From: Heterodontus francisci
Taxonomy: Eukaryota
Reading direction: 5' to 3'
NCBI RefSeq assembly: GCF_036365525.1
Contig: NC_090372.1
Location: 39,618,246-39,682,245, forward strand
DNA: 64,000 bases
This document shows, in pieces, positions 24,025 through 61,649 of this stretch (position 1 is its first letter; each line of letters begins with the position of its first letter). The notes under the pieces were generated by a model. That model did no database searches, was not told the DNA's origin, and saw only the letters and a program-made list of their open reading frames with translations. The position numbers were made by a program, and so were the translations under genes.

Positions 24025-26380
24025 TGAGCCACAGAGAGGGAGAGAGAGAGATTGGGGGGGGGTGGGGGCGCGCCACGGAGAGAGAGAGAGATTGAGATTG
24101 GGGGGGGGGTGCCACAGAGAGAGAGAGCAATTGGGGGGGGGCCAAAGAGAGAGAGAGCGATTGGGGGGGGCCACAGAGAGAGAGAGTGATTGGGGGGGGC
24201 CACAGAGAGAGAGAGTGATTGGGGGGGGGCCACAGAGAGAGAGAGACACACACAGATGGGGGGGGCTACGGAGAGTGACAGATTGGGGGGGCTACGGAGA
24301 GTGACAGATGGGGGGGGCTACGGAGAGAGAGAGAGAGCGATTGGGGGGGGCCACAGAGACAGAGCGATTGGGGGGGGGGGCCACAGAGAGAGAGAGATTG
24401 GGGGGGCCCACACAGAGAGAGAGAGACACACAGATTGGGGGGGCTACGGAGAGTGACAGATTGGGGGGGCTACGGAGAGTGACAGATGGGGGGGGCTACA
24501 GAGAGAGAGAGAGAGAGATTGGGGGAGCACACAGAGAGAGAGAGAGAGATTGGGGGTGGCCACAGAGAGAGAGAGGTTGGGGGGGGTGGGGGTGCAGGGA
24601 GACAGAGAGAGAGATTGGGGGGGCACAGAGAGAGAGATTGGGGGGGCACAGAGAGAGAGATTGGGGGGGCACAGAGAGAGAGATTGGGGGGGCCATAGAG
24701 AGAGAGAGAGAGAAATGGGGGGGGCTACAGAGAGAGAGGGAGAGAGAGAGTTTGGGGGGAGCTACAGAGAGAGAGAGTTTGGGGGGGGCACAGAGAGAGA
24801 GAGAGATGGGGGAGGGCTACAGAGGGATAGGGGAGGGGGGCCACAGAGAGAGAGAGATTGGCTGGGGCCACAGAGAGAGAGAGATTGGGGGGGGGGGGTG
24901 GTACAGAGAGCGAATGAGATTGGGGGGGCCACAGAGGGAGAGAGAGATGGGGGGGGGGGGGGCTACAGACAGAGGGAGAGAGAGATGGGGGGGGGGGGGC
25001 CCACAGAGAGAGAGAGAGATTGGGTGGTGGGGGCCACAGAGAGAGAGATTGGGTGGTGGGGGCCACAGAGAGAGAGATTGGGAGGGGGGGGGCCACTGAG
25101 AGAGAGATTGGGAGGGGGCCACTGAGAGAGAGATTGGGGGGCGCCACAGAAAGAGAGAGATTGGGGGGCGCCACAGAGAGAGAGAGATTGTGGGGGGTGC
25201 CACAGAGAGGGAGAGAGAAAGATGGGGGGGGACCATAGAGAGAGAGTGAGAGAGAGATTTGGGGGGTACAGAGAGAGAGAGAAAGAGAGATTGGATGGGG
25301 CCACAGAGAGAGATTGGGGGGTGCCACAGAGAGAGAGAGAGAGAGATTGGGGGGTGCCACAGAGAGAGAGAGAGAGAGAGAGATTGGCTGGGGCCACAGA
25401 GAGAGAGAGATGGGGGGGGCTACAGAGAGAGAGAGATTGGGGGGCGCCACAGAGAGAGGGAGAGAGAGCTTGGGGGGCGCCACAGAGAGAGAGTGAGAGA
25501 AAGATTGGGAGAGGGGCCACAGAGAGAGTGAGAGAGATTGGGGGGGGGGCACAGAGAGAGAGAGATGGGCGGGCTACAGAGAGAGATGGGGGGGGGGACA
25601 CAGAGGGAGAGAGAGATGGGGCTACAGAGAGAGAGAGATTTGGGGGGCACAGAGACAGAGAGGGAGAGAGAGATGGGGCTACAGAGAGGGAGAGAGAGAT
25701 GGGGCTACAGAGAGAGGGAGGGACAGAGAGATGGGGCTACAGAGAGAGAGAGATTGGGGGGGCCACAGAAGCAGAGAGAGAGATAGAGAAAGATTGGGGG
25801 GGGGGCCACAGAGACAGAGAGAGGGAGAGATTGGGGGTGGCCACAGAGAGAGGGAGAGATTGGGGGGGCCACAGAGAGAGGGAGAGATTGGGGGGGCCAC
25901 GGAGAGAGAGAGAGAAGTTGGGGCGGCCACGGAGAGAGAGGGAGGTTGGGGCGGCCACGGAGAGAGAGAGAGATTGGGGGTGCCACGGAGAGAGAGAGAG
26001 ATTGGGGGGGCCACAGAGAGAGAAGGAGAGAGGGGGTGGGCAGAGAGAAAGAGATGGTGAGCGGGGGGCAGAGAGAGAGGACAGCAGAGACGGTGGGTGG
26101 GAGAGCACAGATGGATGGAGAGAGAGAGAGAGATGGGTTGTTGGGGGTGGACTGACAGAGAGCGAGCAAGCAGGGGGGACCAAGAGCGAGAGAAGGGTGG
26201 GGGCGACCAACTGAGAGAGAGAGGGTGTGGGGACAGAGGGGTCTCACCGTTTGATAGAGAGAGACATGGGGGGTGGGGGCTGACGGAGAGAGAGAGTGGA
26301 ACTGACCTGGGGCAGGGGGCCGTTGGTGTATGACCGAGCGAGAGTGGTGGGGGCGGACGACAGGGAGAGAGAGCGCAAGA
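24025..26380. repeat. About 2.3-kb purine-rich minisatellite, unit about 25 bp: G(5-12)CCAC(AG)nATT
   Basis: Many variable units such as ttgggggggccacagagagagagaga, degenerating toward 26380. Confidence 0.95.
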
Positions 26381-52900: not shown

Positions 52901-52925
52901 TTAAGGCCCCTGCTCAGGGATAGGT

Positions 52926-53222
52926 GGGGGGAAGGGGGTGCGGGAAGAGGGGATGGAGGGAAGGGGGTGCGAGGGAGAGCTGGGGAAGTAGGTGCAAGGG
53001 GAAGATGGTGCGAGGGGTGGGGGGGAGGGGGTGCGGGGAGAGGAGATGGAGGGAAGGGGGTGCGAGGGAGAGCTGGGGAAGTAGGTGCAAGGGGAAAATG
53101 GTGCGAGGGGTGGGGGGGAGGGGGTGCGGGCAGAGGAGATGGAGGGAAGGGGGTGCGAGGGAGAGCTGGAGAAGTAGGTGCAAGGGGAAGATGGTGCGAG
53201 GGGAGGGGGGAAGGGGGTGCAG
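52926..53222. repeat. G-rich tandem repeat, 93-bp unit, about 3 copies
   Basis: gctgg(g/a)gaagtaggtgcaagggg recurs at 52979, 53072 and 53165 (period 93). Confidence 0.9.
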
Positions 53223-53689
53223 GTAATAAAACATTTCATCAGCTCCCACACAATGCGATCCCCATGTAAAGTTGGGGTTGCCTTGTGTAGTTTCAACCTC
53301 GACCCAAAATTTTGCCGGTCTAATTTTAAAAAAAAATTTAAACTGCTGTGATTTATTCGCGATATTTTCTTCTAGGATTCTTGGGATGAAATCAATCCTG
53401 CCAGGTCTATCCCTCACTCACTGCACCAAGAGTTTTGAGGAGAAGGGGCTTTTACTGCCTTTTACTCTCCATGCAGGGGGTGCGTGGTGTGAGCTGGGAA
53501 GGGGGTGCTAGGGGAGAAGGGGGGAGGCGTCCGGCAGGGATCGCAACCTGGCGAGCGGGCCCGCCCACAGCCTGCACGGCCTCCTCAAATCTGCGTCCTC
53601 CAGGCTGACGCTGCGCTCGTGGTCGCCATCCACTGACGGTAGAACTTCTTTCCCAGCTCCCAACAGTGACGCCAGAAGGACGACCAAGG

Positions 53690-53997: not shown

Positions 53998-54859
53998 ACA
54001 CTCTCATCAGCTCAAATTTCTTCAAGTGCTCAGTCATGTGGTTCCTAATTATAACATGCAATATATCCTGGTTTCTCTCGCACCTTCCTTAAATAATGGA
54101 GTTAGATTTGTAATTTTCTAATCTAAAGGAACAATTCCTGAATCGACAGAGCTTTGGAAGATTATGGTTAAATCATCTGCAATTTCCTTACTTCCTTTAA
54201 AACTCTGGGGTGGAAACCATCAGGTCCTTGGATTTGTCAGTCTTTAGTGCCATCACTTTTCCCAATACTGTTTACTTACTTTTGTTAACTTGAGTGAGTT
54301 CCAGTCCTTGATTGATCATTGGTTTCCCTGGCATATCAGATATATTATCCTCTTCCTCGACAGTGAAGACACAAAGTAATTATTCAACAAGTCTGCCATA
54401 ACTTTATTTTCATTTGCGATATTACCCACGTTTGTTTTTAAAGGGTCCACATTACCCTTGACTATACTTTTTCTTCTCATGTCACAAGCTTTTTGTGTGA
54501 ATGTTGCTATCCGTCTCATGTTCCATTTCATAGTCCCTTACTGCAGCTCTTACTATCTCTTTTCTATTCCCTTTGGTGTTCTTCATATCTTTCTCAGTTC
54601 TCTGGATCTAAACTATTTGCACTTTTCTATGTTTTTTTCTTTAGTTTTATGTCATCTCTCATCTTTTGTTGACCATGGTTGTTTTATTGGTAAGTAGAGC
54701 TCTTGCCCCTTAGAGGTATATACTAATCCTGTGTTAAACTATTTTTTAAAAACACTTCGCACTGTCCATCACTAATTTTGCCCACTAACAGTGTTGGCCA
54801 GTTTGCAGTCATCAGTCTCTGTCCCATCCTGTTAAGATTCTAGATTTTAGGAAGGTTAA

Positions 54860-55639
54860 TGTTGAAGAAAATCCAGATTGTGCCCAATTGTTGGACAAAT
54901 TCTCCGGACTCAGACGTTGAGAACAAACTTTTTATTGCATGATATCATGGGGGAGCACACCTTACCTAAATGCAGTCCAGTGCTGCTCCCGCCAACTACA
55001 AATCGCCGTGGACTTATATAGTATAAAAGAAGCAGAGCTAGCAGTTTCACAATTAAGCATAAACTACAGGACAACCACAAGACCACCTGCAGCTCTGTGC
55101 CCTTTGCAATGTCCGAGGTCAGTGGAGCGTTAGTTCGAGCATAACAAGCTATTGTTCCCTATTTAACGTACACACTCCAGGTACTATATTTGGCCGTTAC
55201 TTCTGGCTAGGTTGCACAAACATGATAAGAGCGGAAGAGTCAGTAACGAATACTCTGCTTTCACTTCCCCAAAATCCATCATGAGCTCTGTCCTTTCCTA
55301 AGCCAGATGACTGTGGTCAGTTGCTCTGTCTACATTTCCTGATCATTGGTTAGGTTAGCTACAAGCTGCGTCCTGTTTCTCTATTTTTACAAAGTTAAGA
55401 AATAATTAGCAAAGCTCAGAAAATTCTCCAACAATCCCTCCTTTTATCATACCATGATAACACAATATCATCGTATGTGGAGGGGAGAGGTATTTAAGGT
55501 AGTCATTGAAGCATAATTTATTTCCTGCCATCGCGCTGTACCAGCCGCAAGGCCAAGCTAGCAATACATGATTGATTAATCTCAGCTTAAATGTCCCCAT
55601 AAAATTCTGTTCTTAAAATTCTAAAATTCTGTTCTCACA
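54860..55639 (-). repeat. 3' LTR (780 bp)
   Basis: The - strand reads TGTGAGAAC...TTCAACA and is preceded by the PPT AAGAGGGGA. TATATAA at 55020-55014 and AATAAA at 54936-54931. Confidence 0.9.
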
Positions 55640-56043
55640 GTCCCCTCTTGACTGTTCAACAACCCTTTTAAGAATCCTTCCCTTGATCCCACCTAGGTGC
55701 CTTTAATGGTCTCTATTTGTCTAGAAACAGCCTTCAACACCCGGAGGGGTCGCACTCAATACGTCGCCTGCTTATATCACAAGGGGGCAGCGGGAATTTT
55801 GTAAAGGCATAAGTTTTGCAGGGGCTTCAAATACTTGCTTACAACATAAAAGGTGGTACACTTGTACAATTAAAAATTCATTTAAACATCACTGTTACAT
55901 AATCGATTGTATAAACATAATACAATTTCATAAAGTACATTGATCATTCATTTGCTCACTTTAAGTACATCTGAGAAGGTTATCCAATTACCCTTTTTAT
56001 GGCATAACTAATTGTCCCTCCTTTTACAGAGCAAGTTCAAACA

Positions 56044-57760
56044 CTAATTGCTTTTCGGGTAGCTGTCCAACCTGTATTCATACATCCTCTTACATTGCCT
56101 AATTAATTTCTTAAGTTGCCAAATTAAGTACGTCACATCTAACACCATGATACCCAAAACCACTATCAGGACATGGGAGATAATTCTAAACCAGGGGTGT
56201 ATCTGCACCTCTGACCCCCAGTTCCATAAGTCCTCCTTCCAGGTAGAATCATTTATCTTGTCAATCTCATCTTGTCGCATCTTCGACTGTTGTTCCAGCT
56301 TGCAATGGCTTCCAGCTGCTGTCTCTCTTTACCCAAGCGTGTGAGCAATGGCTGGATAGTATATTCATATTCTCGGTGGTAATTTGTCAAATCCTCCTTA
56401 ATACATTCTGTCACAGTTATCGTTTCTGTCTTTTGCTCATGTATCTGTACCAACTCCATCTTCCCTACTCGGGTTGGTAATTGTGGGTTGAACCAAAACA
56501 TACTGTTGTTCACCGGACAAGTCCGTTTATGTCCATACTGGTACTCCTTCGCTGTGGTGGTTAAGCAATATCTCCCCTTTCCCATATAGGCCACATGGGT
56601 TAGTCCTGACAATGCTTTCCTAGTCTTCATGGTGCAATTTACAGTGGTATTAAATCCACATTTTGATTCTGCCGTTTTATATATAGGACGAGGACATATG
56701 ATCACCTCGTTTTCCAGATTACACTCAGACAATGGACAATGTTGTTCCAATTACCTCTTTTCCAATTTCCACAACATATTGTAAAATATTATTGTATTTT
56801 ATGTAATCTTTTCCCCTTATCACTCCTATATTTTCTACTTCATGTAATTGTATCCCTAATTTATCTCTCAGAATTACAGGTATTCCCAACACTACTCCAA
56901 TACTCATAGATCCTGTATTTAAACATTCCTGACCTTTCCAATCTTAGGTTTTCTGAGTTGGCACCTGATAATTTTATCATTTGTGTGACTAGCAAAGTCC
57001 TCCAACTGGGTGTAATTGATCCAAACTGGTACCTGTCCTGCATCAATTTGCCTCCAATTTTCCTTCGTTTGTTCTAACATCCACGGACCATATGTACTAC
57101 AAACACTTTCATTATTTGAAATGTCGTGGACCTCGTTACCTTTTCTATGATATCATTAATAGTATGAGCATGACCTTCCCGTACTCTCACCAGTCCTGTC
57201 ACCGTTTTTGACAGATCCTGTCCTACTTTAGCTACACCACTTCTGTGCCTTTTGTTCCTTTTTTTAAAAATATCCTTTACTAGCTGACTGAGAGTTCTAA
57301 CCTTCTGGTCCACATTTTCCAAATCTATAGTATTGACAATTGAAGTTCCTGTATTAAGGACTGTGGCTGCGTCATTCACTAAACTACGTTTATGACTCTT
57401 TCCCTTTATTATTTTCTCATTACCAAATTCCTGTCTCAACAATTGTTACAGTAATACCTTGTACAACTCTCGGGTCTTCTCAGGGCACCAGTCAGGTAGC
57501 TGGATATCTGAGAAAATCAATATTACCGGTACCAACTCAAGCTTTACATTATCATATACAATTTTATTAGGTTTTATTATCACAAGTCTATTTTCTAGTC
57601 CTGTAGTCAAGACCGGGCAAGGGAGACCAGTCACTTTTGGCTGTTGGGTCGTAACCTTACTCGTCGGTAATTCGGATGTGGGGTTAACCGTGGGGGTTGT
57701 TGCTTCTTGTCTGTTTAATCTCATAACCAGAAATAGGAACAGTCCTTTTTTTTTAGAGCT
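56044..57760 (-). pseudogene. env: env-like class I fusion glycoprotein, broken into about 6 pieces
   Basis: In order: Thr/Pro-rich N-terminus, WCP motif, furin-like SHKR|SLVNDAATVLNTGTSIVNT, heptad-like segment, Cys-rich region (CPLSEC..IICP..KCGF..NC..YCLTT..TCP), Trp-rich membrane-proximal region, TM IISHVLIVVLGIMVL, short tail. Confidence 0.75.
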
Positions 57761-57919
57761 TTAATATCTTGCGCTAGGGGAGTTCGAGGATTGTCTGCAC
57801 TCACTTTTGCTCTGTCTCATGCTTTCCCTATGTTATTATTATTCCCAAGTAAGAAACCTTTTCCTTCATTATCGGTGCCATTTTCAGCCTAACTTTCACT
57901 CTAACCTTCTTGAAGGAAG

Positions 57920-58075
57920 GTGGAATATCGATGGATTATTATAAAATCCCTGGGAGAGACATGTCCAGATGTACTGTTGTCCCTTGAACGTAAATGCAAA
58001 TTTATTTTGACACTCTTGTGCCAACTGTATGGACCGGAACCCATTGCTCATGTCCAACACAGTAAACCACTGATT
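57920..58075 (-). pseudogene. pol: Retroviral reverse-transcriptase remnant (motifs A-B), not in the ORF track
   Basis: Manual translation gives NQWFTVLDMSNGFRSIQLAQECQNKFAFTFKGQQYIWTCLSQGFYNNPSIFH, matching the retroviral RT pattern xFTVLDLxxxFxSIxL...FAFT..QYTWTxLPQGFxNSPxxF. Confidence 0.85.
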
Positions 58076-60611
58076 TGTTATTTTCTAAAACTTTGATTGT
58101 CCTCTTAAATATCAGATAAATTTCCCTTTTAGTGCTTTAAATAACCACTCATATCAATTAAATTTTGTTTATTGATTCCAATTTCTTATGCCCAGACTTC
58201 GTTGTACTTTTTGTACGTTAAGGACAGAAGTGTTTGCAACTATCTTTCCTTCTCAAGCATTTTGTCTCATTGATAAAGATGCTATGATATTTGATGTCTG
58301 CAATTCAGTTTTAAATTCTCTAAGCTGCTGGATCTCTTGTTGTGGCATCAGTTCTCATGTGGCCTTGGAACCTGCCGTCACCTGCTTAAAAAGAATCCCT
58401 TGTGGCACTGCCCCTGAGCCCAATGGTTTAATTTGTCCAATTCTATCTGTCAACTTGGAAATGTAAAATTTGGCAATGTCCAATATGTATAAATTTGACT
58501 CTCAGCTATGCAAAAAGCTGCAGCGGGTTAAGTTCTTTGTTTGTCTCCAAGGGGGCGGAGCAAAACATTCTCAGCTACGTCACTTTACGAAACCTTTCTT
58601 TTCTGATCGAAAAGAACTATCTATTTTAAACCTTTTCAATCCTTTTGGTATCCTTAGGGTTTAAAAACAACACAATCATGTGTAACATTTTTCAACTTCA
58701 AAGGAAAGCATCTCCATCAGGAAAGACAGCATTTTAGATTAAACTCCAATTGTTTCCAAACTTTTTGTATCTCTTGTCAGAGGTTCCTAATCCAAGGAAT
58801 TTTACGACAAAGATGATTCCAATTCCAATTCATTGCAATAATATTTAAAAATCAAAACTGCCGATGTTATATGAGTGAGTCCCCTGTTTGGAACTTAAGA
58901 CTCCTCCAAAACTCGACATGCTAAACTTGAAAGTTCATTGTGGTTGCAAATGACATTTCCAGTTCTTCAACTTAAACAGGTCAATTAACCTTAACAGTAT
59001 TAATTCAATTCAGACTTATTAACTTATAATACTTATTAACTACACACAGAACAGAATAGCACGTGCATATTTTAAAAGATAGGTAAATTACATCATTTTC
59101 TTGCTCTTTCTTCAGGCGCCTTTTCAAATGACTGTAATAAAACCAAAAATTAAAGAAAAAGTTATTTAACATTCTTACAACAAAAGACTTAACACTAGGT
59201 CCTTACACAAACTTTAATCTTTTTAAACAGACAGAATCTTTCCTATACCTCCTTTTCTATCCTTTCTTTCCCTTAAAACAAGATAACAGTCAGTAAAACA
59301 TGTCTTCAAATTTAGACTGTAAAATAAAACAATAGCAGAGTTTCCAATTAAAACAATGTTCCAAACCCCAAATTAGATTTCTGCCAGACATCTTCAGACC
59401 TTCAAGGCTGAAGCTTATCCCTCAGAAAATTGTTCATTGCCTTTTCACAGTTGCAAAACCAACTAAAAATAAAACTTTAACTTAAAATATAATTCAATTT
59501 TATATCCCATTCCTGGGTGCACAATCTTAAATCGAGATGAACACACTCAACAATCACTTTTCACACTCATTCAATTCCAAACAACTTAATAGACTCATGC
59601 TTTTAACATTAAAGCCAGTCAACAAAGAGTTAACGACAGTCAGTTCTACAGAATACAAGCTGTTCTTCCCAGATATTCAATTCATTCGCGGAAGCTTCCG
59701 ACATTCTCACAGTCGAATCAAAGACACAGTTACTTGTTTGACTCTAAAACATACCTATCTTTAAAACACATATTTACCGTGGCGCTTCTGCATCTCCTTC
59801 GAGGGGGCAAACGGACGTGGGTTGCCTTTCTCCAGAGGACATGGTTTACTTGTCCCCGGGGGCAACCCTTCCTTCTTGGAAGCCGTTGAGTCCACTCTTA
59901 CTTCTACTTTCTCAAAACCTTCTAAATTTACGAGTTCTTTTCTATGAATCAAGTAGCATTAAAACACAGGAAAACAAACAAGACACAACAAAACGAATAG
60001 ACACAAGGATACGAACAGGCGCAGTTAATGTTAAATTCTCAAGGTCAGCTAACCGGCACACCCCTGTCTCTCAGGCCAACGCTCTTTCGTTCTCCCTCCG
60101 TCCCACAGCCTCTCTCTCTAGGGCCAGATTCCGGCTCGTGTACTCAGGAGCAACGATCACGTGCCTGTCAGGTCAATTTGGTAGTTTAGTTACAGCCCCA
60201 GTCGTTCACCGTCCCAGACGGTTGACCTAACTCCTTTTGTCCCACAGCCTCTTTACTCCACCCGGTGGAGGAACAGCTCGTGCAAACTCAAATTAGGATC
60301 ACCAAATTCCCAGAATTTAGTACTACTACTACACCGAATTCGCCACATTTTACTGGATTTTCTACTTATCTCCTTTTCAAGTTCCCTTCGCGGAATTTTA
60401 GATCTTTTCTGATCAGGTTTCAGCCAATTCTTCCTTGACCCCTTTAGTCCCCCTCTCCCAGTTATCTGGCCTTCACGTGGGGCCCAGTCGCCCTCTTAAT
60501 TCCGGCTCAGGCTGGGTGATTGAGACACTAGGGTCGCAGAAAAGTTGACTTACCCCTGATCCTGTCGATTTGTTTTTTTACTAGGTTCTTTTGGATCCCG
60601 TGAACTCAGGG

Positions 60612-60629
60612 ATCCTGCCGACTACGCCA
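60612..60629 (-). other. Primer-binding site for tRNA-Ser
   Basis: The - strand TGGCGTAGTCGGCAGGAT is the 18-nt complement of the vertebrate tRNA-Ser 3' end (ATCCTGCCGACTACGCCA) and lies 3 nt from the U5 end at 60633. Confidence 0.9.
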
Positions 60630-60632
60630 AAC

Positions 60633-60866
60633 TGTTGAAGAAAATCCAGATTGTGCCCAATTGTTGAACAAATTCTCCGGACTCAGACGTTGAGAACAAA
60701 CTTTTTATTGCATGATATCATGGGGGAGCAGCACTGGGAGCAGCACTGGACTGCATTTAGGTAAGGTGTGCTCCCCCATGATATCATGCAATAAAAAGTT
60801 TGTTCTCAACGTCTGAGTCCGGAGAATTTGTTCAACAATTGGGCACAATCTGGATTTTCTTCAACA
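60633..60866. repeat. Inverted repeat with perfect 98-bp arms and a 38-bp spacer, replacing the 5' LTR
   Basis: 60633-60730 is the reverse complement of 60769-60866; both arms derive from the LTR end at 54860-54957. Confidence 0.95.
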
Positions 60867-61649
60867 GTTAACATTTACTGTGTTAAGCATCTCCTTTTCA
60901 AACCTAACATGGAATTCAATTGTATAATGATGACTTGGATTAATGCTCCCTTTCTGTTAAATTATTAACTAAGTCTGGCTCATTCCTCATTACTAAATCT
61001 GGTATTGCCTGCCCTCTTGTTGGTTCTGGAACATATTGCTCCTGAAAACTATCTTGAATGCAATCAAGAAATTGAATGTTTTTCTAACTGGAGCTAATTT
61101 GCTGCTCCTAATCTATAGGAAAATTTAAGTCTCCATTAAAATAACTCAGCTTTGCTACAAGCCTCTCTTTAGTTATGAGGAAAGGTGAGAAAAACTGCCA
61201 TTGTTTTCCGTAGAGCAGAGAAGATGGTGATTTAATGGAGGTTGTCAGGAAAAAAAAACTATATGCTTATTGAGACTCATTAATTTCATTGGTTGGAAAC
61301 TTACCTTAGATTTTTAATGGAGAAAAAATCCTATAAGTTAAATTTTAAAAATCTAACAGCCAAGATGGCCACTGCAATTTACATTTGAAACACCAGGAGA
61401 TTGACCTGGAGACAAAAATCTAACAAAAAGCCCAGCCAGGACAATGGCTTGCTCTCAGTGATTGAATTACCTAGAAATAAAGCTAGAATAGCTTTATTAG
61501 CTTGGCCATCAAGGCCATTCCCACCCATTGACTTTGAAGGAGCCAACCCCTCCAAGTATGAATGGACCTCCTGGAACATGTAGAACCTTGAATTTCATTA
61601 GAAGATTCCAGAACCACCTCATTAGAAACAAAGGGGGATTGATAGAACC

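What the first reader, a model, noticed from the sequence alone, without database searches (positions are those of the whole stretch)
54860..60866. Provirus integrated with two U5 ends: 5' LTR replaced by a fold-back of exactly R-U5
Seen: after the PBS only 98 bp of LTR is present (60633-60730). The sequence then switches strand at a GGGAGCA microhomology, with a small gcactg/ggagca stutter, and runs through an inverted 131-bp copy of the LTR end (60736-60866 = reverse complement of 54860-54990). A GTTAA duplication flanks the whole element and the host CR1 resumes on both sides. The 3' LTR TATA box starts at 55020, which puts the predicted start of R at about 54990, exactly where the inverted copy stops. 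Established: R-U5 is the minus-strand strong-stop DNA. Inference: during reverse transcription the nascent strand switched onto strong-stop DNA through its TGCTCCC 3' end, giving a cDNA with U5 att sites at both ends and no 5' U3 promoter, which integrase still inserted. This would be a fossil of aberrant strand transfer, or a TIR-bounded life form of an LTR element if other copies share it.
Basis: partly seen in the sequence, partly recalled or inferred. Interest (0 to 1): 0.85.

Follow-up and report, generated by a model that had tools for sequence, protein, structure and literature searches.

The report
Provirus capped by self-primed strong-stop DNA
A defective retrovirus-like insertion, likely in a shark genome, lacks its 5' promoter and instead begins with a hairpin made of its own R-U5 end, which likely records a reverse-transcription intermediate that primed on itself (a reaction described as a test-tube dead end for HIV) and was likely still integrated into the germ line.

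Summary
A 6-kb defective provirus with a loki-like env lies on the minus strand between GTTAA repeats. Its 3' LTR is normal (574 bp). Its 5' end is: 131 nt inverted R-U5, a 12-nt repeat of that arm's last 12 nt, 91 nt copied back to the U5 tip, GTT, then the PBS. This is the sequence a minus strong-stop DNA would have after priming on its own 7-bp R hairpin and copying back through U5 and the tRNA. It would then end in PBS and could replace plus strong-stop DNA at the second jump. HIV-1 makes similar products in vitro, where they are called abortive. Other copies of the host repeat span the site with one G(C)TAA, supporting a true duplication. Against: the fold-back and right junctions were not among the read rows shown; the start site is only predicted; and the duplication's GTT matches the U5-PBS spacer, which would also suit a post-integration replication template switch (about 15%). 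A self-propagating TIR form is unlikely. Most likely a one-locus fossil of aberrant reverse transcription in a high-copy family.

The parts
54855..54859 (+). target-site duplication GTTAA, left copy
   Evidence: a contig of another host-repeat copy spans the site collinearly with one G(C)TAA (tables 5/5c, compared by eye)
54860..55433 (-). complete 3' LTR, 574 bp, TGTTG...CAACA; U3 55433-54991; R predicted to start at 54990; TATATAA at 55020; AATAAA at 54936
   Evidence: R start inferred from TATA spacing, not mapped
54951..54990 (-). 5' R hairpin (GGGAGCA, 26-nt loop, TGCTCCC), the self-priming / switch site
   Evidence: inverted repeat list; R-U5 RNA fold z = -3.11, 0 of 200 shuffles; 0.34% of 20,000 resamples have such a repeat ending at this position
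55434..55447 (-). polypurine tract next to the 3' LTR
55954..57625 (-). broken env (stops and frameshifts) of fusion-glycoprotein (loki-like) type
   Evidence: the relative P0015 (residues 250-739) scores 0.94 to PF00523 clusters in the Atlas
57923..58084 (-). reverse transcriptase fragment; no long gag/pol frame remains
   Evidence: PF00078, E = 1.2e-9; three-frame translation
60612..60629 (-). 18-nt primer binding site, tRNA-Ser type
   Evidence: sequence; the tRNA-Ser match is recalled, not from a call
60630..60632 (-). 3-nt spacer GTT between the U5 tip and the PBS
60633..60723 (-). 91 nt of R/U5 in sense orientation, the exact reverse complement of the first 91 nt of the inverted arm (predicted self-primed extension)
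60724..60735 (-). 12-nt stutter, a second copy of the terminal 12 nt of the inverted arm; its last 7 nt are the microhomology
60736..60866 (+). inverted R-U5, 131 nt (predicted minus strong-stop DNA), ending in CA at the host junction
60867..60871 (+). target-site duplication GTTAA, right copy; its GTT equals the U5-PBS spacer
   Evidence: (I2, 101-nt arms)

Best explanation
The provirus has no 5' U3 and begins with a 234-nt fold-back of its own R-U5, which is likely a minus strong-stop DNA that primed on itself during reverse transcription, would then have stood in for plus strong-stop DNA at the second strand transfer, and was likely integrated through two U5 ends. Steps: (1) RT copies U5 and R to the RNA 5' end (inferred; end predicted from the TATA box). 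(2) It slips back on a 2-nt CC:GG match and re-copies the terminal 12 nt (the duplication is shown, the slip is inferred); this tail would also hinder the normal first jump. (3) The 3' TGCTCCC pairs with GGGAGCA in the same strand (pairing shown in sequence) and RT extends through U5, GTT and 18 nt of tRNA (inferred). (4) The new PBS end anneals to the PBS complement of a full-length minus strand made from the virion's second RNA, and both strands are completed (inferred). (5) Integrase joins both CA ends with a 5-bp stagger (CA ends and duplication shown; enzyme inferred). The copy is likely a promoterless one-off in a high-copy family.
For: The sense strand from 60866 to 60612 parses with no unexplained base as 131 + 12 + 91 + 3 + 18 nt. 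The arm ends 30 nt from the TATA box at a C|GGG, and the stutter ends on the same nucleotide. Of 12 seven-mer inverted pairs in the LTR, the one used has the shortest loop and is the one at the predicted RNA start. Both ends stop exactly at CA. An X1 contig of another host-repeat copy crosses the site with a single G(C)TAA, and the host frame runs on with one copy. In vitro, HIV-1 RNA starting with GGG gives strong-stop DNA whose 3'-CCC anneals to an internal GGG and is extended to the primer end, and 2-nt template switches are cited (PMC4668388). Intermolecular second jumps are proposed for integrated HIV-1 proviruses with asymmetric LTRs (PMC9278108). Depth at the U5 tip of the A-bearing arm exceeds mean depth over the G-bearing 3' LTR end (X18 102 vs 27; X1 34,877 vs 6,720), suggesting A is the family state, so the shared A need not mean copying after integration (indirect).
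Against: The RNA start was not mapped. The fold-back and right junctions were not seen in the displayed read rows. The duplication's first 3 nt equal the U5-PBS spacer (background chance about 0.02), which this model leaves as a coincidence or a target preference. The family's normal duplication length is unknown. The sequence cannot separate intramolecular self-priming from an intermolecular switch. The A/G allele count itself was not displayed.
Confidence: 0.55

Rival explanations
1. One reading: while finishing the minus strand, RT left the plus strong-stop template at GGGAGCA and switched onto the TGCTCCC 3' end of a minus strong-stop DNA, then copied it to the U5 tip.
For: Gives the same sequence, with the same 7-nt and 2-nt microhomologies; inter- as well as intra-annealing of strong-stop DNA is named in PMC4668388.
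Against: Needs a stall exactly at the 7-mer plus capture of a second molecule, whereas the hairpin places the two 7-mers together in one strand.
Confidence: 0.2
2. An ordinary provirus integrated first; later a host replication fork switched templates twice, at the R hairpin and at the LTR's terminal inverted repeat, replacing U3 with an inverted copy of R-U5.
For: The outer switch would have 8 nt of perfect microhomology (host AAC + TGTTG) and 12 of 13 overall, which accounts for the GTT coincidence. The two 5' arms are identical while the 3' LTR differs at one site. Such four-point switches occur in ape genomes (PMC7954356).
Against: In that study the copied fragment has median 12 and maximum 128 nt; here it would be 131-143 nt with 443 bp lost. 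It gives no reason for the arm and the stutter both to end at the predicted RNA start. Depth suggests the G in the 3' LTR is the derived base (indirect).
Confidence: 0.15
3. Assembly or library artefact (fold-back chimera).
For: The junction is not among the displayed read rows; a 98-bp perfect hairpin is hard to sequence.
Against: The inversion returns to the host flank exactly at CA with a 5-bp duplication and a collinear host repeat; the junction holds a 12-nt duplication absent from the LTR; 7-nt overlaps are too short to mislead a k-mer assembler (own knowledge).
Confidence: 0.05
4. A self-propagating form of the element bounded by terminal inverted repeats.
For: Depth over R-U5 is several times depth over U3 in X1 and X18, which does not exclude many fold-back copies.
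Against: No 5' U3/TATA; by the standard scheme any read-through RNA would be expected to give ordinary LTRs (inference). 34 X18 reads leave the reference at 55055 on a different U3, which can explain low U3 depth, and one X1 loose end joins the U3 start to non-PPT sequence.
Confidence: 0.03

Closest known systems
Self-primed (abortive) minus strong-stop DNA of HIV-1 (PMC4668388, passages and section 8 read; Guo 1997 and Driscoll & Hughes 2000 seen only as references)
   Same: RNA starting with GGG, 3'-CCC of strong-stop DNA annealing to an internal GGG, extension back to the primer end; hairpin at the start of R.
   Different: There it is an in vitro product described as abortive; here the product would have been completed, integrated with a 5-bp duplication and inherited. 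Their Supplementary Fig. S2 was not seen.
HIV-1 proviruses with asymmetric LTRs (PMC9278108, passages)
   Same: Integrated proviruses whose two ends differ (26 of 88), explained by a second jump between the two RNA copies.
   Different: Those are deletions, mostly in the 3' LTR; the passages seen describe no fold-back or second U5 end.
Guppy foamy-like PrERV-1 with an inverted 5' LTR (PMC5210030, passages)
   Same: Fish endogenous retrovirus with inverted LTR sequence at the 5' end.
   Different: Described only as an inverted 5' LTR, origin called unclear; no R-U5 hairpin described in the passages seen.
Complex LTR-retrotransposon insertions by abnormal template switching (PMC1950507, first of two parts read)
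   Same: Aberrant cDNA integrated once, diagnosed by one flanking duplication.
   Different: Tandem three-LTR fusions in direct orientation, not a hairpin end.
Lokiretroviruses (PMC7947760, passages)
   Same: LTRs, RT and an env resembling paramyxo/pneumovirus fusion glycoprotein.
   Different: Host list there lacks cartilaginous fish (0 hits for shark, cartilaginous or Chondrichthyes); this copy is heavily deleted and RT placement was not tested.
DIRS-type retroelements with inverted terminal repeats (recalled)
   Same: Retroelement bounded by inverted repeats.
   Different: They use a tyrosine recombinase and usually leave no duplication; this element has PBS, PPT, TG...CA ends and a 5-bp duplication.

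Membership tests
Integrase-inserted LTR element / provirus | TG...CA ends with a 4-6 bp target-site duplication | tested here: met
   CA at both host junctions, GTTAA on both sides; other host-repeat copy collinear with one G(C)TAA
Integrase-inserted LTR element / provirus | PBS inside the 5' end and PPT before the 3' LTR | tested here: met
   tRNA-Ser identity recalled
Integrase-inserted LTR element / provirus | Two direct U3-R-U5 LTRs | tested here: not met
   5' end has no U3; it is a fold-back of R-U5
Lokiretrovirus | Env similar to Mononegavirales fusion glycoprotein (PF00523) | tested here: inconclusive
   Atlas features of relative P0015 score 0.94 to PF00523 clusters but also 0.93-0.94 to Baculo_F/Gypsy env clusters; Pfam gave no PF00523 hit in 0 of 8 relatives; profile hits to F0 structures only at E about 6
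Lokiretrovirus | RT groups with lokiretroviruses; dual RNase H | not testable with these tools
   only a 54-aa RT piece was identified; homologue search found no candidate
Self-primed strong-stop product | First arm ends at the RNA 5' end | tested here: inconclusive
   ends 30 nt from TATATAA; no start-site data, RNA runs are contigs only
Self-primed strong-stop product | 3' end pairs within the same strand and the extension is its exact reverse complement through to the primer | tested here: met
   7 of 7 paired, 91 of 91 complementary, then GTT and 18-nt PBS
Self-propagating TIR element | Many insertions share the inverted ends | not testable with these tools
   no own genome held; one search does not resolve it

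The most novel reading that the evidence does not exclude
Self-priming is a recurrent route in this shark retrovirus family: a sizeable share of its many copies carry the same fold-back, so reverse transcription has a second, U3-free way to finish that integrase accepts, repeatedly seeding promoterless proviruses capped by a 98-bp perfect hairpin.
Probability: 0.12. Interest if true: 0.85.

Novelty: new variant of a known kind. Interest (0 to 1): 0.52.

Why it matters
If right, self-primed strong-stop DNA, treated as a dead end of retroviral reverse transcription, can be rescued at the second strand transfer and integrated in the germ line through two U5 ends. The junction would also record the RNA's first nucleotide, a testable prediction. 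It defines a provirus class that LTR finders and primer-based provirus sequencing would likely miss, and that could be sought in any ERV family or HIV integration data. As it stands it is one locus with an untested rival, so the significance is moderate.

Tried and rejected
Own-genome census: no genome held. U5-tip pattern: 0 hits in viral contigs; 5 hits in metagenome contigs, all 21-26 nt chance matches with nothing further aligned. No RNA holder on record listed; X5 is only guessed to be RNA. Pfam on five interior ORFs gave nothing above cut-off; PDB sequence search of the env piece gave one weak unrelated hit. No structure prediction was obtained. Rfam: 3 sub-threshold hits, two of them on the hairpin itself. 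No tRNA genes; the bacterial promoter scan is irrelevant. The shared A in both 5' arms was considered as evidence of post-integration copying and set aside because depth suggests A is the family base. Depth ratios of R-U5 to U3 were tried as a census and are not decisive. Literature searches that found no description of an integrated self-primed strong-stop end: (open-access library only; most older virology papers are missing). Earlier-finding look-ups were empty.
Full report
Observation. The element lies on the minus strand from 60866 to 54860. The 3' LTR is 574 bp, TGTTG...CAACA, with a polypurine tract before it, TATATAA at 55020 and AATAAA at 54936. At the 5' end, 98 nt of the LTR end follow the PBS (60633-60730) and 131 nt recur inverted (60736-60866), each with one mismatch to the 3' LTR and none to each other. 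GTTAA flanks both ends. In one search an X1 contig from another copy of the host repeat crosses the site (54829 to 60881); by eye its intervening letters are collinear with the two flanks and one G(C)TAA. A second bridging contig (54835 to 60877) is less alike. The host frame continues with one copy. The CR1 label is from recalled motifs; Pfam did not confirm it.

What the element is. It is a deleted, non-autonomous provirus: a 54-aa RT piece (PF00078), a broken env and an 18-nt PBS that I recall as tRNA-Ser. The closest env relative is from Heterodontus francisci at 79%, with more distant ones in other sharks and in amphibians, so the host is likely a shark. One relative resembles fusion glycoproteins by Atlas features but not by Pfam, so 'loki-like' is a lead (PMC7947760, passages). 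In X1, two unique flank contigs have depth 9.2 and 11.4, while summed depth over the interior has median 13,804. The tool warns this is not a copy number, but it implies a large family. X5, guessed to be RNA, has 50,000-70,000 over U3/env and about 6-10 on the near flanks, so the family is probably transcribed; that says nothing about this copy.

Anatomy of the 5' end. Read in sense, 60866-60612 is 131 nt of antisense U5-R, then a repeat of its last 12 nt, then the exact reverse complement of its first 91 nt, then GTT and the PBS. The arm's last 7 nt (TGCTCCC) pair with its own positions 92-98 (GGGAGCA). That pair is the base of a hairpin at the predicted start of R in the normal LTR (z = -3.11); 0.34% of 20,000 composition-matched resamples have such a repeat ending there. 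So the microhomology and the R start are one feature of the LTR.

Mechanism. This is the sequence of a minus strong-stop DNA that folded on itself and was extended back through U5 and the tRNA. Such a molecule ends in PBS, like plus strong-stop DNA, and could anneal to a full-length minus strand from the second packaged RNA. Completion gives a linear DNA with U5 at both ends and no 5' U3. The 12-nt stutter fits a slip at the template end on a 2-nt match; the unmatched tail would impair the normal first jump and favour self-priming. All of these steps are inferred. For HIV-1, PMC4668388 (section 8) reports that over 70% of strong-stop DNA from GGG-starting RNA failed the first transfer in vitro, and that the 3'-CCC annealed to an internal GGG and was extended to the primer end; its supplementary figure was not seen. 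PMC9278108 (passages) shows that proviruses with unequal ends integrate and proposes a second jump between RNA copies. A review says U3 and U5 att sites are imperfect inverted repeats with conserved CA/TG and are sufficient for integration (PMC12789967, passages); here the two att sites share 9 of the first 10 nt.

Evidence against and rivals. The right duplication begins with GTT, identical to the U5-PBS spacer (chance about 0.02). With the LTR's terminal repeat this gives 8 nt of perfect microhomology for a post-integration two-switch replication event. Such events exist but had median 12 and maximum 128 nt in apes (PMC7954356, passages), and they do not explain why arm and stutter both end at the predicted RNA start. 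A GT-starting target preference, recalled for HIV-1, could reduce the coincidence but is untested here. The shared A in the 5' arms looked like support for this rival; depth at the U5 tip of the A-bearing arm is four to five times the mean over the G-bearing 3' LTR end in X18 and X1 (two times in X5), which suggests A is the family base. This is indirect, as the allele row was not displayed. At 54930 all laid depth in X1, X5 and X14, and 17 of 22 X18 reads, show C where all three arms have T, consistent with one source lineage. The fold-back and right junctions were not in the displayed rows (15 of 85 joints and 24 of 11,625 pieces shown), so an artefact is not formally excluded, though the clean return to the host flank argues against it.

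Do other copies share it? Not resolved. R-U5 depth exceeds U3 depth several-fold, but 34 X18 reads diverge into a different U3 at 55055, and one X1 loose end joins the U3 start to non-PPT sequence, both fitting an ordinary family with variable U3. A promoterless copy would not be expected to pass the structure on, so repeated cases would be independent accidents.

Novelty. Searches found no integrated self-primed strong-stop end; the library lacks most subscription and older papers. PMC3098202, PMC12440569, PMC13427564 and PMC8922424 were seen as passages; term look-ups in PMC9040795 and PMC12657518 returned nothing relevant. Verdict: a real, probably single-locus product of aberrant reverse transcription (about 75% for either RT route), a new variant of a known kind, interest 0.52.

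Noticed in passing
window 54860-60866 family: A large, apparently transcribed ERV family with a fusion-glycoprotein-like env in sharks (relatives in Heterodontus, Mustelus, Heptranchias, Chiloscyllium). The lokiretrovirus host lists in PMC7947760 and PMC8922424 do not name cartilaginous fish.
   Followed up: partly
P0002, P0003: Horn shark fbxo15 gene models end in this family's env sequence (70-76% identity): exonisation or an annotation chimera.
   Followed up: no
window 54872-54902: U5 folds into a long stem-loop next to the att site, a second structure besides the R hairpin.
   Followed up: no
window 59095-59163: 176 X18 reads begin at 59163 and leave the reference at 59095 with one shared loose end: a single amplified or captured family copy with a different interior.
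   Followed up: no
window 52923-53223: Three 93-bp tandem units at 94-100% identity, 1.6 kb from the provirus.
   Followed up: no
window 24028-26299: Purine-rich degenerate tandem array with strong GC and AT skew.
   Followed up: no
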